A stretch of DNA of 64,000 nt from Chlamydiota bacterium (lineage in GTDB: Bacteria; Chlamydiota; Chlamydiia; Chlamydiales; SM23-39): positions 53 through 64,052 of the forward strand of contig JANPFC010000072.1 of assembly GCA_031423235.1 (NCBI GenBank). Direction: 5' to 3'. Positions 5,551-62,985 of this stretch are shown one piece after another. Numbering within the stretch: position 1 is the stretch's first letter; every line of letters starts with the position of its first letter. Made by a program: the position numbers and the translations under genes. Below the pieces are notes generated by a model that ran no database searches, was not told where the DNA came from, and saw only the letters and a list, made by a program, of their open reading frames with translations.

Positions 5551-6825
5551 ATGAGCGTACTAGACCCTGTAAAGGCTGGCGAAAACATAGCCATTCTAGA
5601 AGATTATTATAAAAATTCAGAAACTGTAGATCTGTATAGAAAGGGTGATCGCCTGGAGATACTCGATTTCTCTGGCTGCTGTTGCGTTTGGTTTAGTCGG
5701 ATATATAAATGTTTGCGTGGGTTTACAAAAGTGGATCCTGCGGATCGACTTGGAGAAACAGCGCGGCTAGTCGATCTATACGCAACCCCCGAATTCGTCA
5801 AGAGCATTGCAAATGATGATAATCGCCTCCTCCCGATGGCTCGATTCGTAAATTCTTTGCGTGGATCATTGATCCAGCATATAAAAGGGCAAGAGCCTAA
5901 TGGTTTATATCCTGCAAATACACCTTTGCCTCTGGACTCAGTGCTAAAAAGGATTAATACATTTTTACTTGGTTCGCGTCCTGCCCCATCTCTTCCGATA
6001 GATATTCCAAATCCTAGAGGTTCATCCCCAGCGCACACTACAGTTTTAGGGGACGGTTCATCTAGGAGCTCTCAGATGGACCGTTGCGATAGACCTGCCC
6101 CGTTTCATTCATGGGGTTATTTTGTAGGAACATTGAGCAATAGAATACCTTCATATTTTTTGCCGGAAGAAAGAGATGCTCTGTGGGATAGACTAAGACC
6201 AAGGCGTGAGCGGGGAGTCGACCGTGGGATATTAAAGGAGACTTTCACGCAGGAAGAAACCGAGGCGCATTTTAGAGATGCACTGGCGGTTGCAGATAGA
6301 GGTGTTAAAATCAGAATTAATAGAGGAAAATGGGAATCACTTGTGCCAGGACTTAAGCGGATAGGAATTCCTGACTTTGTAATCGAGAGGATCAAACAAA
6401 CGGCCAACCTTGAAACGGCGCCAGGAGACTTTAAGCGGCATATTCAGGGACTTGCAGATTCTGAGATTTCAGCTTCAGATATAATGAAACAACGTATGGT
6501 TCAGAAGCTTCTTTCTACATATAATGAGATCGCGACAAGAGTTGGAGTGCCTGCTCTTGCATCACCTGATCAACTCCCAAGCGAATGGTTTTTTGATTCA
6601 AAATTAGATCGTAACTTTCCTCTCAATTTGACCCAATTGATTATTGATAGGAATCGTTTTCCTAAGAATGTGAATGAAGTTTATACCCCTGAATTGGGTG
6701 AAGCCATATCCCATGCTTCCGGCATAATTATTCTCGACCAAGACCGGGCTGCTGAATACAACCGTATAGCTGCATCCATTAACCAGAAGATATCTGGTGT
6801 TGGGATGATTGCGAACTACTTCTAA
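5551..6825 (+). CDS. Hypothetical protein, 424 aa, no recognisable domain
   Basis: Long uninterrupted ORF. GAGG lies before the ATG. An AT-rich ~150-bp region lies upstream. No signal peptide or TM segment seen. Confidence 0.6.
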   Translation: MSVLDPVKAGENIAILEDYYKNSETVDLYRKGDRLEILDFSGCCCVWFSRIYKCLRGFTKVDPADRLGETARLVDLYATPEFVKSIANDDNRLLPMARFVNSLRGSLIQHIKGQEPNGLYPANTPLPLDSVLKRINTFLLGSRPAPSLPIDIPNPRGSSPAHTTVLGDGSSRSSQMDRCDRPAPFHSWGYFVGTLSNRIPSYFLPEERDALWDRLRPRRERGVDRGILKETFTQEETEAHFRDALAVADRGVKIRINRGKWESLVPGLKRIGIPDFVIERIKQTANLETAPGDFKRHIQGLADSEISASDIMKQRMVQKLLSTYNEIATRVGVPALASPDQLPSEWFFDSKLDRNFPLNLTQLIIDRNRFPKNVNEVYTPELGEAISHASGIIILDQDRAAEYNRIAASINQKISGVGMIANYF

Positions 6826-6828
6826 GGG

Positions 6829-7347
6829 TTATTTTTTTCGGGCGCTAACCGTTTCGCCATTGTCGATGTTCTTGATTTTGACAGTGTAGAATAGCTCATT
6901 GTCATTTTTAAGAACCTGCACTCTTTGCCCTCTAATCCAAGCATCGCTCATTTTGGTGAAGGGGGAAACTTCAAACTTCGTATCCCCGATAGTCACTGTA
7001 TGGTCCGCAATTTTGTTGGTAAGGGCCTGTATCCGATCGGCCTGTTTGCGGTCTTTAGGTGAAGTCTTCTCACAGATGGATGATATCGCATCGGCTGCCG
7101 CGTAAAAGGGGGCTGTTTGCGCTTCTACTTCCTGCCGGTGCCGTTCATTCTCTAGTTCTTTTTCACGCTCTTTCTGCTCATTGATTAAGGCGAGCTCTTT
7201 CCGCTGATTGTACCCATCGATCACCTTTTCCCTTTCTGGCTCGGATAAGGTGGTCCAGGTGGCTTCATCGACGCCAAACATCCTTTGTTGGCAGCTAGAA
7301 GCTGCTAGGATCAAAAAAACTGCTGAAAGTGCAAAACATTTTTTCAT
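6829..7347 (-). CDS. Putative lipoprotein with a coiled-coil segment
   Basis: Start at MKKCFALSAVFLILAASSC (signal peptide plus lipobox-like ASSC). A charged helical stretch follows (EQKEREKELENERHRQEVEAQ). Confidence 0.6.
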   Translation of the reverse strand: MKKCFALSAVFLILAASSCQQRMFGVDEATWTTLSEPEREKVIDGYNQRKELALINEQKEREKELENERHRQEVEAQTAPFYAAADAISSICEKTSPKDRKQADRIQALTNKIADHTVTIGDTKFEVSPFTKMSDAWIRGQRVQVLKNDNELFYTVKIKNIDNGETVSARKK

Positions 7348-7378
7348 GGGAGCCCTAAATAAGCAAAATGCCCCTTGA

Positions 7379-7981
7379 TTATAGTGGCGGAGCTGAATAT
7401 TCAGCAAATCCCATTTCTTTCTGACGTCTTAAAGCTTCATTTAATTCTGTAACCTGCTTGGTTAATTTAACTACTTTACACTGGCTTGCGTTAAGTAATT
7501 TAGTGAGGCTTTTCACCTTTTCTTTTAGCGAATCATTTTCACTTTCTAGCTTTAGGAGATGAAGTTTTTTCTTTTCTCGGGATTTTTGCGCTGCTACTCG
7601 ATTCCTTTCAAGCTTTGTTTTAGGGGCAGAGTCATCATCTGATGAAGGGGGTGGGGGAGAGGCCTGCTTTCTTTTTTTTCTTACACTTCTAGTACGAGCC
7701 GTTTCTTCTTCAATCGGTTCTTCTTTGACTTCCGCCGCTTGAGGCTCCTCTTTGGCCTGGGCCATGGGTGCAGGGTCTAGATGCGGGGCAGCCGCTGCTC
7801 GAGCTGTGTCGATGTCTGCGAGCAGATCTCCAGGTTGCTGCTGGCTAGGATTTTCAAGCGCGGCAGACGCTGCGCTCTGGCTTCGTACAAGAACATTCCA
7901 ATCAAAACTTGTGCATCGCGTTAATGGGCTCATTGGAGCAAATAGAGGAGGAAGTGGACTGAAACCATTTAAAGCACTCAT
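7379..7981 (-). CDS. Eukaryotic-like bZIP (basic region/leucine zipper) domain protein
   Basis: 200 aa. Basic region KTKLERNRVAAQKSREKKK (aa 121-139). Heptad Leu at 145/152/159/(S166)/173/180. RKKRK cluster at 101-105. The N-terminal half is acidic and Pro/Gln-rich. GAGG lies 9 nt upstream of the ATG. Confidence 0.7.
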   Translation of the reverse strand: MSALNGFSPLPPLFAPMSPLTRCTSFDWNVLVRSQSAASAALENPSQQQPGDLLADIDTARAAAAPHLDPAPMAQAKEEPQAAEVKEEPIEEETARTRSVRKKRKQASPPPPSSDDDSAPKTKLERNRVAAQKSREKKKLHLLKLESENDSLKEKVKSLTKLLNASQCKVVKLTKQVTELNEALRRQKEMGFAEYSAPPL

Positions 7982-8048
7982 GACAATAAACCTCTGTTCT
8001 GTAATTTATGGATAGATATGTTAGTGAGTGTGTTTGATTTATATCAAT

Positions 8049-9125
8049 TCAAATTATTTCTGAGGCGACTGTGTCATAGAATAGAGTTCCTCTTTCGGTG
8101 AGCTGGAGCTGCGTCCCTTCTTGTTTTAGAAGACCCATCTCTTTTAGTTTCACGATCGCTGACTCGGTTTCCTGCGGGATCGATTTTATATCGACGCCGC
8201 TTTTAAGTCTGAGGCGGACAGCGAGAAGTTCATTGGCATTGGCGGGGTAGGGGAGCCGTTCGCGGAAGTCGACGGGGGATTGGCCGGCTTTTAGGGCCTG
8301 AGAATAGCGGTTGATGTTGGCGATGTTGCGGAACCGTTCTCCTTCCCAATAGCTAAAGGCTGAGGGGCCATAGCCGAGAAAGGGGCGGGCTGTCCAGTAG
8401 CCGAGATTGTGGCGCGATTCGTGGCCAGGGATGGCAAAGGCAGAGATTTCGTATCGTTTAAGGCCGATGGCCTCGAGTCGTTCAAGGGCGGCTGTAAGGA
8501 AGCGGAGGGAGAGGTCTCCTGTTGGAGTCTCTACTTTCCGTTTGTGGAAGGAGGTGTGGGGTTCAATGGTGAGGTTATAGAGGGAGAGGTGGTGGATGGG
8601 GAGGTCTCCGAGTTGGTCGAGGGTGTAGCGCCACGATTCTTCAGTTTGGCCTGGAAGGTCGTACATGAGGTCGATGGAGACGTTTTCAAAGCCCGCTTTT
8701 TGGGCGTTGAATATGGCTTGCCTGGCTTTTTCAGCCGAGTGGATCCTTTCGAGGGTTTGGAGCGATCGGTCGTCGAGCGATTGGACGCCGAGGCTTAGGC
8801 GGTTGATCCCAATTGAGCGGAAATGGGTCAAGAGGGCTATATCGCTCTCTTCGGGGTTGGCTTCGATTGTGATCTCGCAATCGGGGGCCCTTGGGATTTT
8901 TTCAAGGAGCTCTTGGATGCCGCCGTAAAGGGAGGGGGTCCCTCCGCCAAAATAGATCGAGGTGATCGTCTTGCCCTGCAGGAGGGGGAGCTGCTGCTCC
9001 CACTCGAGGGCTAGAGCCTCCCCCAAGAGCTTATGATGGGGAAGGCGATTGGGTATGACGTAAAAATGGCAGTACGGGCACTTCTTCGTGCAGAAGGGGA
9101 TGTGGAAGTAGAGACTGATTACCAA
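8049..9125 (-). CDS. hemW: Radical SAM HemW/HemN-like protein (heme chaperone / coproporphyrinogen III oxidase-like)
   Basis: CxxxCxxC motif in HIPFCTKKCPYCHFY, then GGGTPS. 358 aa. Confidence 0.85.
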   Translation of the reverse strand: MVISLYFHIPFCTKKCPYCHFYVIPNRLPHHKLLGEALALEWEQQLPLLQGKTITSIYFGGGTPSLYGGIQELLEKIPRAPDCEITIEANPEESDIALLTHFRSIGINRLSLGVQSLDDRSLQTLERIHSAEKARQAIFNAQKAGFENVSIDLMYDLPGQTEESWRYTLDQLGDLPIHHLSLYNLTIEPHTSFHKRKVETPTGDLSLRFLTAALERLEAIGLKRYEISAFAIPGHESRHNLGYWTARPFLGYGPSAFSYWEGERFRNIANINRYSQALKAGQSPVDFRERLPYPANANELLAVRLRLKSGVDIKSIPQETESAIVKLKEMGLLKQEGTQLQLTERGTLFYDTVASEII

Positions 9126-9598
9126 TTGTCTGCGTCTGGATCTTCGAGGATCCCCCGTTTCCAGCGGTTCCGGTCAGAGAATGGATCTTCATCGTCTTCT
9201 TCTTCGAGGAGAGTCGCTTCGCCTTCTTCTGTGCTTCCCGCCCCTGTGCCGGCTTCAGTCTCTTCTTCGGCAATCGTCTCCATGTCGTAGGCTTCTGTTT
9301 CCATGTCGAGCCCAGCGTCGGTCATGTTATCGCCCATGTCCATGTCTGGCAGGGTGTGGGGCTCTGCGTAGGCTTGTCTGGAGGGTGATCGTTTCGGGGT
9401 GACGTACTCTTCGAGTTCGCCGCTTTCTTTCATAAAGCGGAGCCGCTCCTTCTCTTCCCCAATTTTCTCTTGGAGAGAACGGATTTCCTCTTTGTGTTTC
9501 ACGACGTCTTTTTTCGGTACAAGCCCTAGATTCATCCACTGCTCAAGATCTTCTAGTTCTGTTTCGAGTTTTTTTAGTCTTTCGCTCTTAATATTCAT
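9119..9598 (-). CDS. Hypothetical acidic coiled-coil protein
   Basis: 159-aa ORF with AGAGGG before the ATG. It overlaps the hemW start by 7 nt, an operon-like arrangement. The C-terminal half is strongly acidic. Confidence 0.5.
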   Translation of the reverse strand: MNIKSERLKKLETELEDLEQWMNLGLVPKKDVVKHKEEIRSLQEKIGEEKERLRFMKESGELEEYVTPKRSPSRQAYAEPHTLPDMDMGDNMTDAGLDMETEAYDMETIAEEETEAGTGAGSTEEGEATLLEEEDDEDPFSDRNRWKRGILEDPDADNW

Positions 9599-17171: not shown

Positions 17172-19352
17172 ATGCCATTTTCATTATCAAGTATATTCGG
17201 TTCTAGAGCGGTGGATGCACCAGCTCCAGTTGAACAACCGAAAGTAAACGAAGTTGAGTTGACTGAGACTCCTTCTACAACATCTGCACCTTCTGCTCCA
17301 GTAGCTGAGGCGGCTGCGCAAGATGCGAAAACAAATTTTGAATGGAACGTTGGCAGACTCTATTCTTCTGAACCTGGTAAGTCTACAGCTAGAACATGGG
17401 CAGTAAGAATTCTTTCTACACTTCTCGTATTCCCACTCGTTTTGACAGCCATTGTTGATCTCGGTCGAAGACTCGCGTACTCAGCAGGTCTTGTAAACGG
17501 CAAGAGCTTTAGCTTAATTGATAAAGCGTCTGCTGGCTGTAAAGCTGTTGCTGACAAGGTAAGCTCTGTTTACCAGTCATACTGCAAACCGTTGACAAAA
17601 GAAGAATTGAACGCTAAGTCGCAAGCAGCGATTAAAGCCCATTCGGAAAAATTAGTTGATGGCTTCAAAGCCCTCAATGGCGGCTATCTCCACACAAACT
17701 CTAGCTTCAGTTCGCCTGCAGCATTAAATGCTGAAAGACAAATTGAGAAAGCGAAAGTGGATCTCATCGCTGAAGTAAATACTTATGTGGTTCGCAATGC
17801 GACTGGAACTGAAGATTTCGTAGCTCATTTAACTACTGCGAAAGCAATGGTTGCATCTTCTCTTGCAGAAGTTGCAGGCGATGCGTTCTACATCCAGAAC
17901 AAATCTGAGCGAAGCGGACCTCGTCCATTCATCCGTGATTGGGCTAACGTAGAATTCCAAGCTGCTCTCGAAGGAAACAAACAGACAGTTGAGCAATTCG
18001 TTGGCTTTGCAAGACAAGAGCCTGACTTTGCAGCCGGCCTCAAAAAAGGGGTTGTTGCTGGAATCTTGACAGGCGAGCAAGCTAAATCTGCTTTGAAACA
18101 ACAAGTTGAAGCTGTGTTCTCTCAAGGCTTGGAAACAGGACTTGAAGCGGCAAACACTGGCGCTGAGAGACTTCTTGAGTCTGGCGTTCAAGCTCAAGTT
18201 GTAAGCAAAGAAGAAGCTGCTTCTGTTGACGAAAGCATCCAACCAGATGTTGATGTCCTTGCAGACGCTGCAGCGAGAGATGTTGCTAGAAAGCAGCAGA
18301 CAAATCCTGCTATCTCTGAAGACGAAATCACAATTCAGCTCACAAAAGCGGCTGATGGATTGAAGCAGAAGAAAAAATTGAAGCCAGAAGACGAAACTAA
18401 GTTCTTGACTGCTGCGAAAGCTCAGCTTGCAAAAGCGAAAGAAGCTGTTGAAGCGGAAGCTATCAAGCAAAAACAAGAAGCTGATGAAATAGCAGCTAAA
18501 CAAGTAGCTGAAGTTCAAAAAGCTGCTGATCAGTCGTCGCTCCTCGGTAAATTCGTCGGAATGCTCGGCCTCATCAGCAAGAAGCAAGAAGAGCTCACAG
18601 CTCAGTTCTTGAAGTTCGATGAACTCGAAGCGAAGCGTCAAACTGTAACGGATTCATTAGAGACAATCCGAACAACAGCTGTGACAGTTCGCGGCGTACC
18701 AATGACTATTTTGCAAGCAGCTGGCGAGTACTATAAAGCTGTTAGCGCGATTTCTAACTCAGGCCTGACGCCTGCAGCTAAGAAACAACAGGTAAAAGAT
18801 TTGGGCAACCAAGGCTTTAGCCAGCAAACGATCGACAAGATCAATCAGTTGAAGGCTCTTGAGCCTCAATTGACTGAAGTACTTGATCAGCAAGACGCTC
18901 TTGCTCAAGCGATCGATACACAGCACGAAGAAGTCGCTACACTGATGGCTAAGTTCAAAGTCTATAAAAAGAACAATCTCGCTCAATTAGAAGTGCGCAA
19001 CCGCAAAGTTGTCACAGACACTGAGAAGAGAATTGAAACGGTTCAAAGGACTTTGGATCAAAGACACAGACAGCTCGCGCAAGTTGACACATCATTGATT
19101 GGCCGTTTGAGACCAGAGCCTCTCAGAGTTGTGAACATCGATCCTACTGCAAACAAAGAGGAAGTTGAAGCTCTTGTGGATGCATTCGGAAGATCTCAAG
19201 GCGCGGTCGCTGATGACTTCATTGTTCCAGATGCAATCTCGCGTACAAGAGTTGTATGGAATGGCATGAAGCGTGCGGCTTCTATCGTGGCGACGCCAGT
19301 AACTTATCCTATCGGCGCTATCGCAGCTCGATGGAATAGGCCAAAAGCATAA
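17172..19352 (+). CDS. Large membrane-anchored Ala/Lys/Glu-rich coiled-coil protein
   Basis: 726 aa. Strong RBS (GGAGG). One N-proximal hydrophobic segment (AVRILSTLLVFPLVLTAIVDLG), a long predicted helical region, and a short hydrophobic C-terminus. Confidence 0.75.
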   Translation: MPFSLSSIFGSRAVDAPAPVEQPKVNEVELTETPSTTSAPSAPVAEAAAQDAKTNFEWNVGRLYSSEPGKSTARTWAVRILSTLLVFPLVLTAIVDLGRRLAYSAGLVNGKSFSLIDKASAGCKAVADKVSSVYQSYCKPLTKEELNAKSQAAIKAHSEKLVDGFKALNGGYLHTNSSFSSPAALNAERQIEKAKVDLIAEVNTYVVRNATGTEDFVAHLTTAKAMVASSLAEVAGDAFYIQNKSERSGPRPFIRDWANVEFQAALEGNKQTVEQFVGFARQEPDFAAGLKKGVVAGILTGEQAKSALKQQVEAVFSQGLETGLEAANTGAERLLESGVQAQVVSKEEAASVDESIQPDVDVLADAAARDVARKQQTNPAISEDEITIQLTKAADGLKQKKKLKPEDETKFLTAAKAQLAKAKEAVEAEAIKQKQEADEIAAKQVAEVQKAADQSSLLGKFVGMLGLISKKQEELTAQFLKFDELEAKRQTVTDSLETIRTTAVTVRGVPMTILQAAGEYYKAVSAISNSGLTPAAKKQQVKDLGNQGFSQQTIDKINQLKALEPQLTEVLDQQDALAQAIDTQHEEVATLMAKFKVYKKNNLAQLEVRNRKVVTDTEKRIETVQRTLDQRHRQLAQVDTSLIGRLRPEPLRVVNIDPTANKEEVEALVDAFGRSQGAVADDFIVPDAISRTRVVWNGMKRAASIVATPVTYPIGAIAARWNRPKA

Positions 19353-21062: not shown

Positions 21063-22715
21063 TCAATAACTAGCGATCAGGCCAACATGGAGTTTTCCAA
21101 GGGAGTGGCCTAAGGCGTCGTCTTTATGGAGTTTGAATCCATAATCCAGACGAGCTTGTAGATAGCGGCTGTAGTTGTACCTAAATCCAGCGCCAAGGCT
21201 TCCTAGCCAATCGCGATTCTTCTCATTGGAAAGGGACGTGTAATTCCAGCCGCCAGCAAAGTCGCCAAAGATGAGAAAGTAGAGTGCATCGTCAAATTTT
21301 TCATTATGGCGTTGGCGGGAAATGCTAACTGTTGGGGAATGGAGCTCTAGATTGAGAACAAGGGCCTGATCGGCGTTAAATTCCCTTTCGTCGTATCCGC
21401 GGACGGTGTCGTATCCGCCCAGGCCAAGCTGCTCGCTTGGAAGAAGGGCTCCGCTGGATACTTGTCCTCGCAGATAGCCATAGAGAGCTAGATCATAGGG
21501 CATAAAGTAGGTGTCTTTGACCCCTGCAAGAGCGTATATGTATTGATTTTTGGCCCCAGCGCGGAGGTTATTGAAATTGGTGTTGCTTCCTCCGCCAAGT
21601 ATGTCGCCGGGAGATGCATACAGATTCCCTTCAAATGAAAATTGGTGGTTCTCATTGGCTATTCCAAGGTGGTATTGGATAACAAATTGACCCAAATTCA
21701 CATTCTTAAAAATGATTGGTATGGACTCGTCGCCGATATAGGCGAGGTTGTTGTTCATCCGTTTGAAATCGAAGCCGAAGACGACATCTTGCAGTCTAGC
21801 TTTATAGAATGCTCCAAAGGGAATTTCATATCTAACGCTGGCTTGTGCTGAAAAGCCGTGGGATCTGAGCTGATTCGGCGGCGGCATGAAATCGTTTTTT
21901 ATCTGGTTTAGCGACGGATTCACAAAGGAGACGCCGCCGAAAAATGTAAGTATTTGTCGGAATTGATTTGGTGCGACGTATTGCGCGGTGTGAGCTTGAA
22001 ATCTATGAAAGTCGGAACTGGTCGTATACTGGTAGGAGAGCATATGATCGATGAAGAAGAGGTTGCCGTAGTTAAAGCCAGTATACCAGCGGGCGTCTCC
22101 AGTGTATTTATTCCCAGTATTGTCTCCGCCAACGTAAACCCGTAGAGGAAGTCGGTCTTCAGTCACCAAAATGATATCGGTGGTTTTTTCTTCCGCTCCT
22201 GGAGAGAAGGCAAGACTAGTATTTCGAAAAGGGTTTCGGTTGGTGAAGGCGATGTCTGAAAGGAGCCGGTCTGTTCGAATCCGTTCTCCTGGCTCAACTT
22301 CTATGTAGGAGGTAAGTACCCGATCGCTGAAGTATCGATTGCCTGTGCACCAAATATTGCAGAGAGTCGATTCGCAAAGAACCATCAGCACGGTTCCGTT
22401 GGAGACGTCCTGTTCTGGGATGTCGACAATTAAGAAAGGGAGTTTATTTTCTCCATAATGGATCCGAATTTCCTGTTTCAATTGGGCCAATAGTTCCTGG
22501 GAGATCGGTTTTCCAGAAAAGATAGGTTCAAGTCGGTCTCTTAAAGCGCTCTCGCCTCCAGGGATGTCGATATCCAAAATTTTTAGACCTACCGCTTCGG
22601 ATGGCTCATCAAGCCCATGACTGCTTAAAATTAGGCCATACATGGGTAAATTCTCAGGCTCGTCAGCTTGCGCCACCGAGATGAGGAAGAGTAAGATCCA
22701 GGTTATTCTCTTCAT
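21063..22715 (-). CDS. Two-partner secretion outer-membrane transporter (TpsB; ShlB/FhaC family)
   Basis: Signal peptide, a POTRA-like N-region, and the GGYDTVRGYDEREF motif typical of ShlB-type transporters. C-terminal beta-barrel. Its start overlaps the tpsA stop by 4 nt. Confidence 0.85.
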   Translation of the reverse strand: MKRITWILLFLISVAQADEPENLPMYGLILSSHGLDEPSEAVGLKILDIDIPGGESALRDRLEPIFSGKPISQELLAQLKQEIRIHYGENKLPFLIVDIPEQDVSNGTVLMVLCESTLCNIWCTGNRYFSDRVLTSYIEVEPGERIRTDRLLSDIAFTNRNPFRNTSLAFSPGAEEKTTDIILVTEDRLPLRVYVGGDNTGNKYTGDARWYTGFNYGNLFFIDHMLSYQYTTSSDFHRFQAHTAQYVAPNQFRQILTFFGGVSFVNPSLNQIKNDFMPPPNQLRSHGFSAQASVRYEIPFGAFYKARLQDVVFGFDFKRMNNNLAYIGDESIPIIFKNVNLGQFVIQYHLGIANENHQFSFEGNLYASPGDILGGGSNTNFNNLRAGAKNQYIYALAGVKDTYFMPYDLALYGYLRGQVSSGALLPSEQLGLGGYDTVRGYDEREFNADQALVLNLELHSPTVSISRQRHNEKFDDALYFLIFGDFAGGWNYTSLSNEKNRDWLGSLGAGFRYNYSRYLQARLDYGFKLHKDDALGHSLGKLHVGLIASY

Positions 22716-25177
22716 TCCATTTTCTCGCTATATGAGTGATCAAACCAGTACATGTTGTAGGGCAAGATCTGTTTTCTTAAGTAAAAATAGCGTCCCAAAG
22801 GATCGAGTTCCCAATATATCCCTTGATCCTTTGTCTTAATGATATCGAACGATTCTACGCTGTAGAAGAACCGGTCGAAGAGATCGGTTTCAAGCCCCTG
22901 GAGAAATTCGTATGTAGAGATGTTGAATGCCTGAAGAGCTTTGGATGAAACAAATATGTTTTTGTAGAAAATCGTATAGGGAAATCCTGAGTTATGCGGA
23001 TAGTAGATGCCCCATATTTCCAAATCGGTGTCGACAAACTCTGGCCCTGGATTGTAGGGCTGTCCATTTAGAAGGCCGCTGATCGAAGTGTAATTCCGCG
23101 TAGTAGTATAAATGAGGAGTGGACCTGTTGTCGATAGGGTAGCTCCTGCCGCCTTGACAAACTGGGCTGTTCCAATCCCTGGAGGATTCGGGAAGTTGTT
23201 GTCGGCGACTAAAGTGAGGGAGCCAGAATCGGTCGAAATTATGGCCAAATCATTAATTAGAATGCTTTGGCCGGCGGTTGCCAGAATCGATCCTATCCCG
23301 GTTGTACAGGCGGCTTCGACATTCATCGTAAAGCTGCCACCGACGATGAGCGAAATATCTCCATTTCCATCTTGTCGGACTAGTGAAAAGTCCTCCATTT
23401 TAAAATCAGACGCAGTCGTGATTGTAATTGGGCTCATATCGCTAAAGTCGCGCCGAATTGAAGAACCTAAGCCCAATAGAAACGAACTTCCAACATTTAT
23501 CTCTATAGGGCCATCAAATGTATATAAATGGACCCCTGTTTGACTAGTCGGGTTGATGCTAAGAATTCCACCCGTATTTACAGTAATTCCATGCGCAGCC
23601 TCAAATTCAATTAATTCAGCAGCCGTGGTCGTCAATGTGCAATCTCTTCCTGTAACAATCTGGATTGCACCGTTTACAATAGCTTGGACTCGGACTGTTC
23701 CATTTGGCGCTAAGCCTGCTTGAGCAATTAAATCTCTTTTTGCGTCGATAAGAACATTGCCGGTTGAGGTAGTGCGGACCACTGTTAGGGAGGTAGCCGC
23801 TGCTGTTCCCAGGTATATATCCCGATTTGCCAAATAGGACAAATTGCCTGCAGTTCTTACCGAAACACCCGCCTGATAGATATCTTGAACCGAGTCAAAA
23901 GTGATGTTCCCAGCACCTGTATTCGTGATGGCGGCTTGGATCAGGATATCTCCTGCGGTCACAGCCGGTGTGGTGGAGAGATGGTTTGTTCGAAATGTGA
24001 GATTGTTCGGCCGGTTATATGGGAAAGGGGTTGAGATGATTACATTCCCCGGTTCCAGGCCTAAAACGGACCCTGAAGATTCGATAATCACGTCTGCAGT
24101 CGCAAGATTTGTATTCACGGTTCCTATACTAATCGTCGAACCTGCTCCGGTTGGCATATGGATAAAGGGAGGCGCTCCAGGAAGGGTCACATTGATATTG
24201 GCAGCCCCTAAAGTGATGTTATATGGATCGAGCAGAAGAGAGCCGGTCTTCCCAAGCTTGGCTGTTGCATCGGCAAGGCCTTGATAATCGAGATACTGTC
24301 TGCCTGAGACTTCGATCGCACCGCCATTTCCGCCAAATTCACCGCCTTTCGCTTCAATTCGGCCGAGAAACTGGGTGGCATCTTCAGACCAGATAACTAC
24401 ATTTCCCCCATCGCCCCTTTCTGTGCTATTTGCGAGAATGGATGCAGAAGAACTTGCTGAAACTTGCCTTGCGCTGGGGAGGGTCTGATTGCTCCCATTA
24501 AAATCTCCTCCAATGAAGATTTTGCCTCCGCTTCCAGGACTCGATGTGTCAATTTGAGTTCGATCAGAAAGGGAAATATATTCTCCAACAACGCGGATTT
24601 CTCCACCAGGCGCTTCTAAACGGCCGTCGATTTCGACAGTTCCTTTGTCGCTAATTAAATAAACATGGCCCCCTTTAGAGGAGAGGGTTGTTGCAGAGAT
24701 TTTCCCTGAATGTCGGATCGCTGTTTCAAATGAACTGTCTGATATCAGAGGGGTTACAAAAAGTGGCCCGGTAGAGAAATCGTGGGCTAAAAACTTTTCG
24801 TCTGCAAAGTCGAATGTCTGGGCAATGAAGCTGTTTGTGTCTATAACGGCATGCTCTGTGACGAAGATCCCATTCGGATTGACCAAATATACTTGACCAT
24901 TGCTTTTAAGCAATCCAGCGAGGGTGCTCGGGTTGCCAGAGAGGACTCGATTCAATACGGCAGATGTGGGACTTGGTTGAATAAAGTGGGTCAGTTCTCC
25001 CTCATCAATCGAAAACTCTTTCCAATTGATGATGGCCGTATTTTCTGTCGTAATTTGGAGCGTGGCGGGCGAAAGGGATTCTATGGCTACATCGCCTGCA
25101 ATGATTTCAGGACCTAACGGATTAGCGTAAGCGCTGAAAATTGAACCGAGTAGGAAAAGCGAACTAATGGATTTCAT
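22712..25177 (-). CDS. Two-partner secretion exoprotein (TpsA) with an N-terminal TPS/haemagglutination-activity domain
   Basis: Signal peptide, then the TPS domain INWKEFSIDEGELTHFIQPSPTSAVLNRVLSGNPSTLAGLLKSNGQVYLVNPNGIFV (NPNG at 24869-24880). The body is Gly/Thr/Ile-rich and beta-helix-like. The C-terminal ~150 aa is aromatic-rich and unassigned. Confidence 0.85.
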   Translation of the reverse strand: MKSISSLFLLGSIFSAYANPLGPEIIAGDVAIESLSPATLQITTENTAIINWKEFSIDEGELTHFIQPSPTSAVLNRVLSGNPSTLAGLLKSNGQVYLVNPNGIFVTEHAVIDTNSFIAQTFDFADEKFLAHDFSTGPLFVTPLISDSSFETAIRHSGKISATTLSSKGGHVYLISDKGTVEIDGRLEAPGGEIRVVGEYISLSDRTQIDTSSPGSGGKIFIGGDFNGSNQTLPSARQVSASSSASILANSTERGDGGNVVIWSEDATQFLGRIEAKGGEFGGNGGAIEVSGRQYLDYQGLADATAKLGKTGSLLLDPYNITLGAANINVTLPGAPPFIHMPTGAGSTISIGTVNTNLATADVIIESSGSVLGLEPGNVIISTPFPYNRPNNLTFRTNHLSTTPAVTAGDILIQAAITNTGAGNITFDSVQDIYQAGVSVRTAGNLSYLANRDIYLGTAAATSLTVVRTTSTGNVLIDAKRDLIAQAGLAPNGTVRVQAIVNGAIQIVTGRDCTLTTTAAELIEFEAAHGITVNTGGILSINPTSQTGVHLYTFDGPIEINVGSSFLLGLGSSIRRDFSDMSPITITTASDFKMEDFSLVRQDGNGDISLIVGGSFTMNVEAACTTGIGSILATAGQSILINDLAIISTDSGSLTLVADNNFPNPPGIGTAQFVKAAGATLSTTGPLLIYTTTRNYTSISGLLNGQPYNPGPEFVDTDLEIWGIYYPHNSGFPYTIFYKNIFVSSKALQAFNISTYEFLQGLETDLFDRFFYSVESFDIIKTKDQGIYWELDPLGRYFYLRKQILPYNMYWFDHSYSEKME

Positions 25178-34532: not shown

Positions 34533-34973
34533 ATGAATTCGGAAACAGCATGGAGCCAAGCCCAAGGACAAGCTAGAGATTCGGCTAAGGTAGTTTCGAT
34601 TACTGAAGCGGCTAGAATCAATAACGTAACTCGGCAGGCCATCTATGTTGCTATCAAACAAAAGAAGTTGAAAGCAACAAAAGATTCGACACGTTGGACG
34701 ATTCATTTAGATGACTTAGATGAGTACCGAAAGAACAAGTATTCGCGTACAAAGTCTATGTTTGACGGTGAGCTTTTATTTGACAATCGAAAAGGGTATT
34801 ATTCTGTAAATCAAGCAGCGAAATTATTAGGCGTACCGGCTCAGAAGATTTATTACGCAACACGCGTAGGTCTTTTAAAGGCGCATCGCAAAGGTGCAGC
34901 TTGGGTAATTCACACAGAAGATATCAAAGGTTATCAAGATAATTATTTAAATAGCAGACCAAAAGTTGGCTAA
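34533..34973 (+). CDS. euo: Tandem excisionase-type HTH DNA-binding protein, EUO-like by position
   Basis: Two HTH_17-like repeats: SITEAARINNVTRQAIYVAIKQKKLKATKDSTRWTI and YSVNQAAKLLGVPAQKIYYATRVGLLKAHRKGAAWVI. AGGAGG RBS and a long AT-rich upstream region. It sits between gltX/tsp and recJ, as euo does in C. trachomatis (from memory). Confidence 0.55.
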   Translation: MNSETAWSQAQGQARDSAKVVSITEAARINNVTRQAIYVAIKQKKLKATKDSTRWTIHLDDLDEYRKNKYSRTKSMFDGELLFDNRKGYYSVNQAAKLLGVPAQKIYYATRVGLLKAHRKGAAWVIHTEDIKGYQDNYLNSRPKVG

Positions 34974-52838: not shown

Positions 52839-54887
52839 TTAAAAATTCAGCCCAAGGGTGATTTTTCCCTGGTGCGACTGGTATTTAGAACCAAACTCGC
52901 CCTGATAGCTGAAGGAGGCGTAAGGGTATTTATTTGCGATGGGGAGAAATACCGCTTCGAATTCACCGACGGCAAGATTTTGGGCGCCGGTGAAGGTTGT
53001 AACAGAGAATGAGCCAGGCAATCCAATTACGTAGGCGTTGATGGGTCCTGTATTGAAGGCTTTTTGGTAGGCGTAAGCCCCTTTTTCGCGTAAGACTAGA
53101 GATCCCCAGCAATAGGAGAGGACTTCATTGAAACGGAATCCCAATTCGTTTCGCAGCAAGGAACAGCTTCTATCTTCTTGTCCCATATTCAGGAGTCCCG
53201 CTCCGAATTCTTCAAATCCCTTTTCCCAGCAAATAACCCAATCGATCATGGCAAAGGGTTCGATGGAAAACCATTTATTTACGTAGTCGTAGCCGATTTC
53301 AAAGTGGGGGGTGAGCTGCCATCCATGCGTATCTGAAACGGCGGTGCCCGAGATGTCTGGAAAGGAGATATTCCGGTCGTTATGAGTTCTGTAGAGACCT
53401 CCCCATAATCCAAAATCAAAGTACCATTCGGAAGGGATGCACATGCCGTAAAAGGCTAGGGCTCCCTGTTCGACATGGGCATGGCCGGCGCCATTAGCTT
53501 CATGAACGTGGGTTTGCGCATATGCGCCTCCGCCTCCAATCAGAAGCCATGGATCGTCTCCTCCAGAGCCATCGAATCCCGCAACGAGCCCCCAAGAACC
53601 GGTCTCAAATCCGGGTGTCTGATTCTGCTCCTTTTCTTTCGCATATTCGCCAAATCCACCTATCCAAGGAGAAAAATTCGTCTCTTTTTTACAAGGAGTT
53701 TGGGATCCGGAAAGATTGTCTCGCGCATCTGCAACAAGACCAGTCTGATTGCGCTGCCAATGGGCGAGGGCTAATGGATTAGACTGGGAGATTTCCTGGT
53801 GAGCGATCCTATTGTGGCCTAGATGGTCATTGACGAGCTTGCCAAAGGAGATTTGTGTTGTTTGCGCAGCGAAGGTGGGAATTGCATTGCGAGTCGGAAT
53901 GGCGCTCTCTAGTGCGCTGGCGATGTCTTCCTGTAATGCGAATAGACGCAATAAGGGGATGGGTGCATACCCGTTTAAATAAGTGGCAAAATTTAGGTTG
54001 TTACCGCTGAGATCTGCTGTGCCTACCTGCAAAGCTAGGGAGATGTAATTCAGAGAGGCTCCTACAATTGGGGCTGCGCTTACTAATGTGACGCTTCCAT
54101 TTGTGAGATCCACTCGATAGATTTCATTGCTCAGCTTGCCTACAACGTAGGCGGTCGTGTTGTTTGCGAGCGCAATTCCTTTTAACCCTGCCCCTGCAAT
54201 TGGAGTTGGGTTGACAAGGGTGTAGTCGCCGCTCGTTAAATCGATCCGATAGATGTTATTGGCTGTGTTTCCTGTGACGTAGGCAGTCGTATTATTTGCG
54301 AGCGCGATGCTGATTAGACCGGTCCCTGGGATTTCGGTCACTTCGTAAAAGCTGCCGGTCGTCAAGTCGATCCGATAGACCGTAGAGTTGCTGTTGTCTA
54401 TTGAGTAGCCGATCGTTGGATTTCCGATTTGCATTTCGAGTGCGATATCATTAAGTCCTGCAGCTGGCGCAGGAGAGGGGGTTACTGGGGAGACAGTGCC
54501 GGTCATTAAATTTACATAATAGAGAAGATTCGACGAAGCGCCTGGTGTGTAGGATGAGCCGTTGCTACCAAGAGCAATATTAGCAAAGGTTGCGCCTGGA
54601 GTTGCGGACGGGGTCACTTTAACCACTTCGCCCGTTCTTAAATTCACCTGATAGACATTGTTATCCAGTCCACCAACTGTATAGGCTGTTCCTCGATTTA
54701 AAAGAGCAATGCCGTCTAGACCAGATCCGGCTATCGGCGAGGGTGTTACAAGGGTCGTAGCGCCGGTGATTAGATCGACCCGATAGATGTTATTGTTGGG
54801 TGCGCCTCCGTCTGTGTACGCGGCGGTTGCATCTGCACAAATGTGAGTTGCGCCCATTAGGCAAATCGCGGACGCTATTGTTCGCAT
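52839..54887 (-). CDS. Autotransporter with a six-repeat beta-propeller-like (YVTN-type) passenger
   Basis: Signal peptide. Six ~44-aa repeats N(N)IYRVDL.TG..TLVTP.PI.G.GL.GIAL...T.AYV.G start at aa 35/79/123/171/213/257. The C-terminal ~280 aa is Trp/Gly/aromatic-rich and beta-barrel-like, ending in LGLNF. Confidence 0.8.
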   Translation of the reverse strand: MRTIASAICLMGATHICADATAAYTDGGAPNNNIYRVDLITGATTLVTPSPIAGSGLDGIALLNRGTAYTVGGLDNNVYQVNLRTGEVVKVTPSATPGATFANIALGSNGSSYTPGASSNLLYYVNLMTGTVSPVTPSPAPAAGLNDIALEMQIGNPTIGYSIDNSNSTVYRIDLTTGSFYEVTEIPGTGLISIALANNTTAYVTGNTANNIYRIDLTSGDYTLVNPTPIAGAGLKGIALANNTTAYVVGKLSNEIYRVDLTNGSVTLVSAAPIVGASLNYISLALQVGTADLSGNNLNFATYLNGYAPIPLLRLFALQEDIASALESAIPTRNAIPTFAAQTTQISFGKLVNDHLGHNRIAHQEISQSNPLALAHWQRNQTGLVADARDNLSGSQTPCKKETNFSPWIGGFGEYAKEKEQNQTPGFETGSWGLVAGFDGSGGDDPWLLIGGGGAYAQTHVHEANGAGHAHVEQGALAFYGMCIPSEWYFDFGLWGGLYRTHNDRNISFPDISGTAVSDTHGWQLTPHFEIGYDYVNKWFSIEPFAMIDWVICWEKGFEEFGAGLLNMGQEDRSCSLLRNELGFRFNEVLSYCWGSLVLREKGAYAYQKAFNTGPINAYVIGLPGSFSVTTFTGAQNLAVGEFEAVFLPIANKYPYASFSYQGEFGSKYQSHQGKITLGLNF

Positions 54888-62628: not shown

Positions 62629-62985
62629 TTAAGGGGTTTTGGCGTTTACATAAACCCAGGCGAAAATACCTGAAAGCAGTTGCACTTGAATTCTTTTATA
62701 GTCGGCCACCTCATATTTATCCGCCCGGAGTAGTTCCTCCTTGGAAATTTTAAATACTATTCCTGGAATTCGGTCTTCAGGATTTCCAGAAAATTGAATA
62801 ATAGAGTGAATATCTTCGCCACTTTTGGCAATCACTTCTGGGTCGGTAATCTTTAGTTTTTCTAGAAAATAGCCGGGGAGACTGTCGGATTGGCCTGCTA
62901 ATTTGCGTCCAAATGTAGCAAGTTGGACATTTTCATATCTTAATGTGCCATAGGAGAATAAATTTTCTGTGTAATCAAATTTCAT
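62629..62985 (-). CDS. Gamma-glutamylcyclotransferase (AIG2/GGACT)-like protein
   Basis: 118 aa with the N-terminal LFSYGTL motif. Overlaps the upstream methyltransferase gene by 4 nt. Confidence 0.65.
   Translation of the reverse strand: MKFDYTENLFSYGTLRYENVQLATFGRKLAGQSDSLPGYFLEKLKITDPEVIAKSGEDIHSIIQFSGNPEDRIPGIVFKISKEELLRADKYEVADYKRIQVQLLSGIFAWVYVNAKTP

What the first reader, a model, noticed from the sequence alone, without database searches (positions are those of the whole stretch)
7379..7981. Eukaryotic-type bZIP transcription-factor domain encoded in a chlamydia-like genome (candidate nuclear effector)
Residues 121-139, KTKLERNRVAAQKSREKKK, fit the eukaryotic bZIP basic-region signature as I remember it: [KR]-x(1,3)-[RKSAQ]-N-x2-[SAQ]2-x-[RKTAENQ]-x-R-x-[RK]. 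The invariant Asn127 and Arg135 are present (N-x7-R). A heptad zipper follows, with Leu at 145/152/159, Ser at 166, and Leu at 173/180. The first zipper Leu lies exactly 18 residues after the invariant Asn. This is the same register as GCN4 (N235 to L253). Upstream there is an RKKRK cluster that looks like an NLS, and an acidic, Pro/Gln-rich N-terminal half that looks like an activation domain. There is no signal peptide or TM segment. bZIP is essentially a eukaryotic fold. In an amoeba-infecting bacterium this suggests a secreted mimic that dimerises with, or competes against, host bZIP factors.
Basis: partly seen in the sequence, partly recalled or inferred. Interest (0 to 1): 0.9.

Follow-up and report, generated by a model that had tools for sequence, protein, structure and literature searches.

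The report
Chlamydial gene encoding a eukaryote-type bZIP
An uncultured chlamydia-like bacterium carries a small, fast-evolving gene for a genuine eukaryote-style bZIP (basic leucine zipper) DNA-binding protein, which most likely is injected into the host cell to act as a counterfeit host transcription factor, although secretion and nuclear action are not yet shown.

Summary
The bZIP call passes independent tests:
- Pfam bZIP_2 scores above its gathering threshold.
- All six family members hit bZIP_1 and bZIP_2.
- A profile of the family finds c-Jun, CREB, ATF4 and C/EBP structures (E down to 8.5e-6), ungapped.
- AlphaFold2 gives one continuous helix over residues 123-193 (block-mean pLDDT 88-98) behind a disordered acidic N-terminal half.

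The gene is bacterial, not contamination. Three independent assemblies place it between chlamydial hemN and an FKBP gene, inside a three-gene insertion that the 14 related chlamydial loci compared in detail lack. None of 80 related loci encodes a relative. A divergent relative sits elsewhere in another chlamydial contig.

The gene has the lowest GC3 in the window and dN/dS of 0.5-0.6. The bZIP domain (ω 0.25) and the first 30 residues (ω 0.18) are constrained, and promoter-like and SD-like elements are conserved upstream.

Type III secretion, nuclear import, DNA binding and the host are all inferred, not shown. No amoebal donor could be identified: the nearest non-family bZIPs are scattered protist and giant-virus sequences. 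I found no paper on a chlamydial bZIP. The only bacterial precedent found is Endozoicomonas.

The parts
7379..7981 (-). Complete bZIP gene (200 aa plus stop)
   Evidence: ORF list. The product is identical to database protein P0043, held by NCBI and Logan on a 66,396-bp contig.
7886..7981 (-). Conserved N-terminal module, residues 1-32. It contains the motif P-[MY]-S-P-L-x-R-x-x-S-x-[DE]-W. It is a candidate type III secretion signal and/or short linear (activation or phospho) motif.
   Evidence: Residues 1-15 are invariant in the four close orthologues. The motif is recognisable in P0004 and P0005 at 34-35% overall identity. dN/dS for residues 1-30 is 0.18, against 1.16 for residues 31-97. 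The function is inferred.
7691..7885 (-). Disordered, acidic, Pro/Gln/Ala-rich region, residues 33-97. It is a candidate activation domain.
   Evidence: Most of residues 35-101 have AF2 pLDDT below 50, and the block means are 43-49. Residues 1-97 have net charge -8. This region evolves fast.
7667..7681 (-). RKKRK basic cluster, residues 101-105. It resembles a classical monopartite NLS.
   Evidence: Position confirmed. R104 and K105 are invariant in all six members. NLS function was not tested.
7628..7645 (-). Ser/Asp cluster SSDDDS, residues 113-118. It resembles a CK2 phosphorylation site and lies just N-terminal of the basic region.
   Evidence: An acidic Ser/Asp cluster is kept at this place in all six members. 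Phosphorylation is an inference.
7550..7621 (-). bZIP basic region, residues 121-144. It carries N127-x2-A130-A131-x2-S134-R135.
   Evidence: Pfam match over residues 121-175. Regex match. Ungapped alignment of the family profile to c-Jun. N127, R128, A131, R135 and K138 are invariant.
7421..7549 (-). Leucine zipper, residues 145-187. The d positions are L145, L152, L159, S166, L173 and L180. The a positions are N149, V156, L163, V170, V177 and L184. E148 (g) and K153 (e) are invariant.
   Evidence: Heptad register. Invariant columns. AF2 helix over residues 123-193 with block-mean pLDDT 88-98.
8018..8047 (-). Promoter-like element, TTGATA-18 nt-TAACAT. It starts immediately after the hemN stop codon.
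   Evidence: Consensus scan. Both hexamers are conserved in L001 and in the distant L082. This is a consensus match only, and transcription is not shown.
7991..7995 (-). Shine-Dalgarno-like AGAGG, 9 nt upstream of the ATG
   Evidence: Sequence. The G-rich core and the downstream TTTA are conserved in L001 and L082.
6829..7347 (-). Co-inserted gene: a 172-aa protein with an N-terminal signal peptide or lipoprotein-like leader and a charged coiled-coil stretch
   Evidence: Present only in the three syntenic loci. No Pfam domain. Strongly constrained, with dN/dS 0.06.
5551..6825 (+). Co-inserted orphan gene, 424 aa. It has low GC3 and evolves fast.
   Evidence: Only three database relatives, all in the same clade. 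No Pfam domain. GC3 is 0.353. dN/dS is 0.47 and 0.23. The AF2 model is unusable, with pLDDT 33.8.

Best explanation
The ORF encodes a genuine bZIP transcription-factor-type protein. Its order is:
- a conserved 30-residue N-terminal module;
- a disordered, acidic, Pro/Gln/Ala-rich half;
- an RKKRK cluster followed by a Ser/Asp cluster;
- a canonical basic region joined in exact register to a six-heptad leucine zipper.

The gene sits in a three-gene, lineage-specific insertion between hemN and an FKBP gene in one clade of uncultured Chlamydiota.

Most likely mechanism (inferred, not shown):
1. The protein is exported by the chlamydial type III secretion system, using its N-terminal module.
2. 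It enters the host nucleus through the basic cluster or the basic region.
3. It forms a parallel coiled-coil dimer. A homodimer is favoured by the invariant Asn149 at an 'a' position, by the invariant E148(g)-K153(e') pair, and by the absence of repulsive g-e' pairs. Heterodimers with host bZIPs are not excluded.
4. It binds TGAC-type half-sites (AP-1 or CRE-like), because its base-contacting set N-AA-SR equals that of GCN4, Jun and CREB.
5. It thereby activates host bZIP-controlled genes through the acidic half, or competes for them.

Shown here: bZIP identity, bacterial genomic location, lineage restriction, and the pattern of selection. Inferred: secretion, nuclear import, dimer type, DNA site, and the effect on the host.
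For: bZIP identity:
- Pfam bZIP_2 scores 24.5 bits against a cut-off of 22.3.
- All six family members hit bZIP_1 and bZIP_2, with best E-values of 9.7e-8 and 2.3e-7.
- The family profile against PDB gives c-Jun at 8.5e-6 and CREB at 6.6e-5, then BACH1, ATF4, C/EBPβ, Pap1, TGA and GCN4. The alignment to c-Jun is ungapped over 58 residues.
- AF2 predicts a single helix over residues 123-193 with block-mean pLDDT 88-98.

Bacterial origin, not contamination:
- The same order, sucA-p159-hemN-bZIP-lipoprotein-like-orphan-FKBP, appears in the window, in L001 (Logan) and in L082 (JGI).
- A divergent paralogue or orthologue lies in a chlamydial contig, L083.

Lineage-specific accessory gene:
- In the 14 related loci compared in detail, FKBP follows hemN with none of the three island genes present, or the contig ends first.
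- None of the 80 related loci encodes a relative of the bZIP protein.
- There are only three 50%-identity clusters of this family among 1.84 billion representatives.

Foreign or accessory signature:
- GC3 is 0.323, the lowest of 43 ORFs (mean 0.506, sd 0.072).
- GC3 is low in all four lineages.

Functional, not decaying:
- The ORFs are intact across dS greater than 1.
- The bZIP domain has ω = 0.25, against 0.69 for the N-terminal half.
- The first 30 residues have ω = 0.18.
- Promoter-like and SD-like elements are conserved.

Effector-like evolution: whole-gene ω is 0.52-0.63, against 0.01-0.09 for housekeeping neighbours.

Other points:
- There is no TM segment or Sec signal.
- CRE and AP-1 sites are not enriched in the bacterium's own 64 kb.
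- From established knowledge: all known Chlamydiota are obligate intracellular and carry a T3SS. Herpesviruses and retroviruses (EBV Zta, MDV Meq, HTLV-1 HBZ) already show that pathogen-encoded bZIPs can hijack host bZIP networks.
Against: - There is no direct evidence for secretion. T3S signals have no testable consensus with these tools, and no T3SS gene or chaperone is adjacent.
- The host organism is unknown.
- The RKKRK cluster and the acidic region are generic features.
- The window protein is below the bZIP_1 gathering score (23.1 against 27.6) and only just above that of bZIP_2.
- Base-contacting residues vary among close orthologues (NRVAAQKSR, NRESALKYR, NRKSAREYR). ω for the basic region is about 1.4 between the window and L001, on 24 codons only. 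This could mean shifting specificity, but equally relaxed constraint on DNA binding.
- Chlamydiae do use eukaryote-like DNA-binding proteins internally (the histone-H1-like Hc1 and Hc2), so action inside the bacterium is not excluded.
Confidence: 0.55

Rival explanations
1. It is a real bZIP protein that works inside the bacterium. It would be a DNA-binding regulator or nucleoid protein co-opted for chlamydial gene control, much as the histone-H1-like Hc1 and Hc2 are.
For: The gene has its own conserved sigma-70-like promoter and SD-like element. There is no recognisable secretion signal or adjacent chaperone. From established knowledge, Chlamydiae have precedent for eukaryote-like DNA-binding proteins used internally.
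Against: The gene is restricted to a very narrow clade and is absent from close relatives that share the surrounding genes. It evolves 5-50 times faster than its neighbours by dN/dS. It carries an acidic disordered half plus an NLS-like cluster, typical of eukaryotic activators. CRE and AP-1 sites are not enriched in the 64-kb window, and none is near the gene.
Confidence: 0.2
2. It is a secreted zipper-only decoy. The protein enters the host but acts mainly by heterodimerising with a host bZIP and sequestering or poisoning it, as a dominant negative. Its own DNA binding would be secondary.
For: The zipper core (L145, E148, N149, L152, K153, V156, L159, L163) is invariant. Several basic-region positions that contact DNA in GCN4 or Jun vary between close orthologues. 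ω for the basic region is about 1.4, against 0.37 for the zipper, between the window and L001 (small sample).
Against: The signature residues N127, R128, A131 and R135 are invariant. At longer divergence the basic region is constrained, with ω = 0.22. The window protein keeps the full N-AA-SR contact set.
Confidence: 0.15
3. It is a passenger gene acquired by horizontal transfer, with no current function, and is slowly decaying.
For: GC3 is low. Whole-gene dN/dS is high at 0.5-0.6. The distribution is tiny.
Against: The ORFs are intact in six sequences across dS greater than 1, and all indels are in frame. Purifying selection is concentrated on the bZIP domain and the N-terminal 30 residues. 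Upstream elements are conserved.
Confidence: 0.06
4. It is not a bZIP at all. It would be a bacterial coiled-coil protein whose basic stretch resembles the motif by chance, or a eukaryotic or viral contaminant mis-assembled into a MAG.
For: Pfam scores for the window protein are marginal. Foldseek returned nothing for the model. Coiled coils often give weak bZIP hits.
Against: The regex and the family HMM find nothing comparable in 1.36 Mb of mostly chlamydial sequence. All six members hit both bZIP models. The top 17 PDB hits are all bZIPs, except one unnamed chain, and the alignment to c-Jun is ungapped across both the basic region and the zipper. The N-x7-R-x9-L spacing is exact. Three independent assemblies share the same chlamydial flanks at 88-99% amino-acid identity.
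Confidence: 0.03

Closest known systems
Eukaryotic bZIP transcription factors (Jun/AP-1, CREB/ATF, C/EBP, GCN4; Pfam PF00170 and PF07716)
   Same: The basic-region signature N-x2-AA-x2-SR is present. The N-x7-R-x9-L spacing is exact. The heptad Leu zipper has Asn at an 'a' position. A continuous helix is predicted, an acidic disordered region lies N-terminal to it, and a Ser/Asp cluster precedes the basic region.
   Different: The protein is encoded in a bacterial chromosome, with a bacterial-type promoter and SD-like element. It is not assignable to any eukaryotic subfamily, since the best non-family hits are only E about 1e-5 and are taxonomically scattered. It has a family-specific N-terminal motif not seen in those hits.
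Pathogen-encoded bZIPs of viruses (EBV Zta/BZLF1, Marek's disease virus Meq, HTLV-1 HBZ, KSHV K-bZIP) and the short bZIP genes on giant-virus contigs seen here (L084, L086)
   Same: These are parasite-encoded bZIPs that act in the host nucleus as homodimers or with host partners (established knowledge). The giant-virus-like bZIPs share the LE-x-EN-x-x-LK zipper start and about 32% identity.
   Different: Viral proteins are made in the host cytoplasm. A bacterial protein must first be translocated across the bacterial envelope and the inclusion membrane. No close viral relative was found in IMG/VR.
Bacterial nucleomodulins and DNA-binding effectors (Xanthomonas and Ralstonia TAL effectors; Chlamydia NUE; Anaplasma AnkA; Legionella RomA)
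   Same: The proposed logic is the same: a secreted bacterial protein enters the host nucleus and reprograms transcription. TAL effectors likewise combine an NLS, an acidic activation domain and a DNA-binding module (established knowledge).
   Different: The DNA-binding module is a completely different fold, a dimeric bZIP helix rather than TAL repeats, a SET domain or ankyrin repeats. No tandem repeats were noticed in the protein, though no dedicated repeat search was run on it. Translocation is untested here.
bZIP genes annotated in Endozoicomonas genomes ('Nach1/Nach2' CNC-bZIPs and a C/EBP-like protein; PMC6213907)
   Same: These are bZIP-domain proteins recorded in genomes of host-associated bacteria.
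   Different: Those proteins are very similar to animal proteins. The paper reports 72% identity of the C/EBP-like domain to human C/EBP, which points to very recent transfer or host contamination. The chlamydial family is highly diverged from every eukaryotic bZIP. It is anchored by conserved bacterial synteny in three assemblies and has a bacterial upstream region.

Membership tests
bZIP superfamily (Pfam bZIP_1 PF00170, bZIP_2 PF07716; PROSITE PS00036) | Profile-HMM score at or above the curated threshold | tested here: met
   bZIP_2 scores 24.5 bits against a cut-off of 22.3. bZIP_1 scores 23.1, below its cut-off of 27.6. All six family members match both models at E <= 0.01, with best values of 9.7e-8 and 2.3e-7. 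The database's precomputed Pfam annotation for P0001-P0003 is PF00170.
bZIP superfamily | Basic-region signature [KR]-x(1,3)-[RKSAQ]-N-x2-[SAQ]2-x-[RKTAENQ]-x-R-x-[RK], with invariant Asn and Arg (N-x7-R) | tested here: met
   The regex, with the pattern written from memory, matches KLERNRVAAQKSREK. It gave only 3 hits in 10,968 segments. N127 and R135 are invariant in the family.
bZIP superfamily | Leucine heptad repeat in fixed register, with the first Leu nine residues after the invariant Arg | tested here: met
   R135 is followed by nine residues and then L145. The d positions are L145, L152, L159, S166, L173 and L180, and the a positions are hydrophobic or Asn. The family profile aligns to c-Jun without gaps across the basic region and zipper.
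bZIP superfamily | Continuous alpha-helix through the basic region and the zipper | tested here: met
   AF2 predicts a helix over residues 123-193 with block-mean pLDDT 88-98. This is a monomer prediction only. Foldseek is uninformative for a single helix.
bZIP superfamily | Parallel two-stranded coiled-coil dimer that binds palindromic or pseudo-palindromic DNA | not testable with these tools
   No multimer or DNA-complex prediction is available. The only support is inference from the invariant N149(a) and E148(g)-K153(e') and from the N-AA-SR contact set.
Chlamydial type III secreted effectors / nucleomodulins | Translocation into the host cell by the T3SS | not testable with these tools
   No predictor or assay is available. 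The N-terminal 25 residues are rich in Ser and Pro and have no acidic residue. They are under purifying selection. This is compatible with a T3S signal but not diagnostic.
Chlamydial type III secreted effectors / nucleomodulins | Functional nuclear localisation signal and nuclear accumulation | tested here: inconclusive
   RKKRK at 101-105 fits the classical K-[KR]-x-[KR] consensus, and R104 and K105 are invariant. Localisation was not tested.
Chlamydial type III secreted effectors / nucleomodulins | Accessory, lineage-restricted, fast-evolving gene in an obligate intracellular bacterium | tested here: met
   The gene lies in a three-gene insertion absent from related loci. ω is 0.52-0.63, against 0.01-0.09 for its neighbours. 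GC3 is the lowest in the window.
TAL effectors | Central array of about 34-aa repeats with repeat-variable diresidues | tested here: not met
   The protein is 200 aa, with no Pfam TAL match and no internal repeat evident on inspection of the sequence. The resemblance is functional only.

The most novel reading that the evidence does not exclude
This would be a bacterial, type-III-delivered bZIP transcription factor. An obligate intracellular chlamydia injects a complete eukaryote-style activator, made of a secretion or activation module, an acidic domain, an NLS and a bZIP domain. The activator dimerises in the host nucleus and directly rewires host AP-1/CRE-type gene expression. Its DNA-contact and partner-contact residues would diversify rapidly between closely related symbionts as they track different hosts. 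This would be the first bZIP-class trans-kingdom transcription factor from a bacterium, and only the second DNA-reading effector class after TAL effectors.
Probability: 0.5. Interest if true: 0.85.

Novelty: new variant of a known kind. Interest (0 to 1): 0.7.

Why it matters
Bacterial effectors that enter the host nucleus usually modify chromatin or bind host proteins. Effectors that themselves read DNA like a host transcription factor are essentially limited to TAL effectors.

A chlamydial bZIP would add a second, structurally simple class, with three practical advantages:
- Its specificity rules (base-contact residues and a/d/e/g zipper positions) are already understood. Targets and partners could therefore be predicted and tested quickly.
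- The natural variation at these positions among orthologues of 70-95% identity offers a ready-made series for studying how an effector re-tunes DNA or partner specificity.
- It shows that eukaryote-type transcription-factor folds circulate among chlamydiae, protists and giant viruses, even though the donor cannot be named.

If the protein instead acts inside the bacterium, it would be a rare case of a bZIP regulating a prokaryotic genome.

Tried and rejected
- GTDB genome scan with the family alignment found no relative. The peptide patterns used were specific to the close clade, so distant members could have been missed.
- Word-indexed search with the bZIP-only alignment found nothing at E <= 10, because of the database size.
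- Foldseek of the AF2 model against PDB gave 0 hits. A single long helix is uninformative.
- IMG/VR scan found none.
- The metagenome scan found only two giant-virus-type loci at 32% identity.
- Donor identification failed. The names of the top non-family hits are scattered across protists, and a domain alignment gave no clear nearest subfamily. They scored lower (15-19 bits) than many other bZIPs, so it was dropped.
- Mobile-element hallmarks around the insertion were sought without result. There are no tRNAs, no Rfam hits, and only short chance-level repeats.
- Structure prediction of the co-inserted 424-aa orphan gave pLDDT 33.8 and is unusable.
- Pfam and NCBIfam found nothing for the two co-inserted genes. 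The weak NCBIfam hits of the bZIP protein (IcmG/DotF at 19 bits against a cut-off of 200, and SMC) are coiled-coil noise.
- Own-genome CRE and AP-1 sites are not enriched.
- Contigs for two other short bZIP proteins (P0028 and P0017) were uninformative.
- Ten literature searches found no chlamydial or Legionella-encoded bZIP.
Full report
**1. The observation**

Window 7379..7981 holds, on the minus strand, an ATG-initiated ORF of 200 codons.
- Residues 121-139 read KTKLERNRVAAQKSREKKK.
- N127 and R135 are separated by seven residues.
- The first zipper Leu (L145) follows R135 after exactly nine residues, which is 18 after the Asn.
- The heptad positions are L145, L152, L159, S166, L173 and L180.
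- RKKRK lies at 101-105.
- Residues 1-97 are rich in Pro, Gln and Ala, with net charge -8.
- No hydrophobic segment exists (maximum 19-residue Kyte-Doolittle mean = 0.64).

**2. Is it more than chance?**

A stricter PROSITE-type regular expression for the bZIP basic region (written from my memory of PS00036) was run over all stop-to-stop segments of at least 50 aa in six frames. The sequence searched was 1.36 Mb: the window plus 84 fetched loci, almost all chlamydial. The regex hit three of 10,968 segments. Two hits are this protein and its relative in L083. The third is a low-complexity stretch with no zipper after it. An HMM of the family's bZIP region hit only the family itself and one bZIP on a giant-virus-like contig.

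**3. Is it a bZIP?**

- Pfam bZIP_2 scores 24.5 bits (gathering score 22.3, E = 2.8e-5) over residues 121-175. bZIP_1 scores 23.1 bits, below its cut-off of 27.6.
- The marginal single-sequence result is strengthened by relatives. All six family members match both models, with best E-values of 9.7e-8 and 2.3e-7.
- A profile built only from the six bacterial sequences retrieves solved bZIP structures from the PDB: c-Jun at 8.5e-6, CREB at 6.6e-5, then BACH1, ATF4, C/EBPβ, Pap1, TGA factors, GCN4 and Maf. The alignment to c-Jun is ungapped over 58 residues and spans both the basic region and the zipper.
- AlphaFold2 on the six-sequence alignment predicts a single uninterrupted helix over residues 123-193. 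Block-mean pLDDT is 88-98 for residues 121-190. Most of the first 120 residues have low confidence, with block means of 43-57.
- Foldseek against the PDB returned nothing, as expected for a lone helix.
- The weak NCBIfam hits (IcmG/DotF, SMC) are far below their thresholds and are coiled-coil noise.

I therefore treat bZIP membership as established at the sequence and fold level. Dimerisation and DNA binding could not be tested.

**4. Whose gene is it?**

The flanking genes are bacterial. The HemN-like neighbour retrieves 80 loci, nearly all labelled Chlamydiae, Chlamydiales, Parachlamydiales or PVC MAGs. The best GTDB species representatives are only about 80% identical. The window also encodes the very large fused SecDF typical of chlamydiae, autotransporters, a two-partner secretion pair and other bacterial genes.

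The protein is identical to a database entry held by NCBI and Logan on a 66,396-bp contig.

The gene order sucA / p159-hemN-bZIP-172-aa protein / 424-aa orphan / FKBP recurs in two independent assemblies:
- L001 is a Logan assembly of SRR22387948. Its flanking genes are 95-99% identical to the window's.
- L082 is from JGI 3300064746. Its flanking genes are 88-97% identical.

This rules out a chimeric contig or eukaryotic contamination.

**5. A lineage-specific insertion**

In the 14 related loci examined in detail, hemN is followed by the convergent FKBP gene with none of the three island genes between them, or the contig ends first. The gap is usually under about 500 bp (up to about 760 bp). 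None of the 80 loci contains a relative of the bZIP protein.

The window, L001 and L082 instead carry three extra genes there (window 5551-7981):
- the bZIP gene;
- a 172-aa protein bearing a signal peptide;
- a 424-aa orphan.

The last two have no Pfam domain. The orphan has only three database relatives, all in this clade.

No tRNA, Rfam element or meaningful flanking repeat marks the insertion.

**6. Size of the family**

The family is tiny. A search of 5.8 billion clusters gave three close homologues of 69-94% identity. An exhaustive HMMER scan of 1.84 billion representatives gave only two further full-length relatives, P0004 (the L082 orthologue) and P0005.

P0005 lies in a different context. 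It sits 4 nt downstream of a zeta-toxin-like P-loop protein, near ribonucleotide reductase and a PI3/PI4-kinase-domain protein. That contig is chlamydial, because its RNR β subunit clusters at 90% identity or more with a protein named '[Chlamydiae bacterium]'.

All six proteins share the architecture and a family-specific N-terminal motif, P-[MY]-S-P-L-x-R-x-x-S-x-[DE]-W.

**7. Evolutionary behaviour**

GC3 of the bZIP gene is 0.323. That is the lowest of 43 ORFs in the window (mean 0.506, sd 0.072), and the orphan is at 0.353. The low GC3 is seen in all four lineages, at 0.32-0.40 against 0.5-0.7 for housekeeping neighbours.

Whole-gene dN/dS is 0.63 against L001 and 0.52 against L082. The values for hemN, FKBP, p159 and the 172-aa protein are 0.01-0.09. 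Amino-acid identity to the L082 orthologue is only 35%, while hemN is 88% identical.

The constraint is uneven:
- Against L082, the bZIP domain has ω = 0.25 and the N-terminal half 0.69.
- Against L001, residues 1-30 have ω = 0.18, the disordered residues 31-97 have 1.16, the basic region 1.37 (24 codons, not significant) and the zipper 0.37.

The invariant columns across all six members include N127, R128, A131, R135, K138, L145, E148, N149, L152, K153, V156, L159 and L163. All indels are in frame.

A promoter-like TTGATA-18-TAACAT starts directly after the hemN stop codon, and an AGAGG lies 9 nt before the ATG. Both are conserved in L001 and in the distant L082.

The gene is therefore maintained and probably has its own promoter. 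It is not a decaying relic.

**8. Mechanism**

Shown: a bacterial gene for a protein with two constrained modules, the N-terminal 30 residues and a canonical bZIP. They are separated by a fast-evolving, acidic, disordered linker that carries an invariant RK within an RKKRK cluster and a Ser/Asp cluster.

Inferred, step by step:

(a) Export. All known Chlamydiota are obligate intracellular and use a type III secretion system whose signals lie in the first 20-30 residues (established knowledge). The N-terminus here is rich in Ser and Pro, has no acidic residue in the first 26 positions, and is under purifying selection. This is compatible with a T3S signal but not diagnostic.

(b) Nuclear import. 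RKKRK fits the classical monopartite consensus.

(c) Dimerisation. In the register fixed by the alignment to Jun, N149 occupies an 'a' position and E148(g)-K153(e') form the only charged g-e' pair. Both features are invariant, and no repulsive pair is present. By the accepted bZIP pairing rules this allows homodimers, while heterodimers with host bZIPs that carry Asn at the same position remain possible.

(d) DNA target. N127, A130, A131, S134 and R135 reproduce the five base-contacting residues of GCN4, Jun and CREB (established from their crystal structures). That predicts TGAC half-sites of the AP-1 or CRE type. Orthologues carry NRESALKYR, NRKSAREYR, NREAARKSR and NRLSAQRYR, so specificity may differ between strains.

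(e) Effect. The acidic disordered half and the hydrophobic-acidic motif SFDWNVLV resemble activation domains. This is speculative.

CRE and AP-1 sites are not enriched in the bacterial window, and none lies near the gene. CRE was found 0 times against 0.64 expected, and AP-1 4 times against 7.2 expected. This weakly argues against a role on the bacterium's own DNA.

**9. Rivals**

- An intrabacterial regulator. The precedent is the chlamydial histone-like Hc1 and Hc2. This cannot be excluded (about 0.2).
- A zipper decoy that poisons a host bZIP (about 0.15). This is a variant of the effector idea and is suggested by the variable basic-region positions.
- A functionless passenger. This is unlikely given the selection pattern (about 0.06).
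- A chance coiled coil, or contamination. This is essentially excluded (about 0.03).

**10. Origin**

None was found. After the family itself, the best hits (E from 3e-6 to 1e-3) are:
- a three-bZIP protein of unknown source;
- Diphylleia rotans;
- a protein on a giant-virus-like contig (L084, which carries chitin synthase, Ro60 and RNase H);
- Tritrichomonas;
- a ciliate;
- Mesostigma;
- an Anaeramoeba 'C/EBP';
- Hac1-like fungal proteins.

A metagenome scan added a 107-aa bZIP on a giant-virus contig with a B-family polymerase (L086). IMG/VR gave nothing.

The domain aligns without gaps to all of these, but no subfamily or donor stands out. The host of the bacterium is also unknown, so 'amoeba-infecting' is an assumption.

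**11. Comparison with what is known, and novelty**

In ten full-text searches I found no report of a bZIP encoded by Chlamydiae or Legionella, or of a bZIP described as a nucleomodulin.

The one precedent for bZIPs in bacterial genomes is a paper on Endozoicomonas (PMC6213907). It describes 'Nach1/2' and a C/EBP-like protein. That paper reports 72% identity of the C/EBP-like domain to human C/EBP, which suggests very recent transfer or host contamination. It is a very different situation from this highly diverged, syntenically anchored family.

Functionally, the closest analogues are viral bZIPs (Zta, Meq, HBZ) and bacterial TAL effectors.

The protein is a member of the bZIP superfamily by the sequence and fold criteria tested. 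As a bacterial system it is best called a new variant of a known kind, namely eukaryote-like effectors or nucleomodulins. Public databases already tag the close homologues with PF00170, so the domain call itself is not new. The biological reading is.

**12. Verdict**

Interest is 0.7.

Noticed in passing
window 5551-6825 (+): A 424-aa orphan is co-inserted with the bZIP gene. It has no Pfam domain and only three database relatives, all in the same clade. GC3 is 0.353 and dN/dS is 0.23-0.47. It has a CCC motif near residue 43. The AF2 model is unusable (pLDDT 33.8). It may be a second effector of the same island.
   Followed up: partly
window 6829-7347 (-): A 172-aa protein has a signal peptide or lipoprotein-like leader (MKKCFALSAVFLILAASSC) and a Glu/Lys/Arg-rich coiled-coil stretch. 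It lies immediately downstream of the bZIP gene on the same strand. It is part of the same insertion but is strongly conserved (dN/dS 0.06-0.07).
   Followed up: partly
window 17172-19352 (+): A 726-aa ORF has no Pfam domain and the next-lowest GC3 among long ORFs (0.373). It may be another lineage-specific or horizontally acquired gene.
   Followed up: no
window 34533-34973 (+) and 62982-63695 (-): Two further low-GC3 genes were seen. One is a 146-aa double HTH_17 (excisionase or MerR-like) protein with GC3 0.34. The other is a 237-aa SAM-methyltransferase with GC3 0.328. They may be remnants of mobile DNA.
   Followed up: no
window 21063-25177 (-), 35047-37905 (-), 52839-54887 (-), 40090-45480 (+): The window holds a dense set of surface or secretion genes: a two-partner secretion pair (a ShlB/FhaC-type transporter plus an 821-aa TPS-domain protein), two autotransporters, and a 1,796-aa RHS/YD-repeat protein.
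   Followed up: no
window 38002-40017 (+): A 671-aa protein combines a dCache sensor domain with an adenylate/guanylate cyclase domain. This is an environmental-sensing cyclase in a presumably obligate intracellular bacterium.
   Followed up: no
window 9119-9598 (-): A 159-aa protein with a very acidic C-terminus overlaps the hemN start. It is 80-99% identical across all related chlamydial loci (dN/dS 0.008-0.02) and has no Pfam domain. It is a highly conserved chlamydial protein of unknown function.
   Followed up: no
L083 533-2092 and 8095-9873: In a second chlamydial contig, the bZIP relative (TTG start) lies 4 nt after a 325-aa zeta-toxin-like P-loop protein that has an internal hydrophobic, signal-anchor-like segment (about residues 29-45). 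The same contig encodes a 592-aa protein with a eukaryote-type PI3/PI4-kinase domain.
   Followed up: partly
L084 10001-10435; L086 4796-5119: Giant-virus-like contigs carry short bZIP genes of 144 and 107 aa. L084 also has chitin synthase, Ro60/TROVE and RNase H, and L086 has a B-family DNA polymerase. These bZIPs share the LE-x-EN-x-x-LK zipper start with the chlamydial family.
   Followed up: partly
window 7671-7678 (coding strand of the bZIP gene, nt 303-310): An A8 homopolymer encodes the RKKRK cluster. It is conserved in L001, and A7 and A9 runs occur elsewhere in the L082 and L083 genes. It is probably just Lys codons, but it is a potential slippage site.
   Followed up: partly
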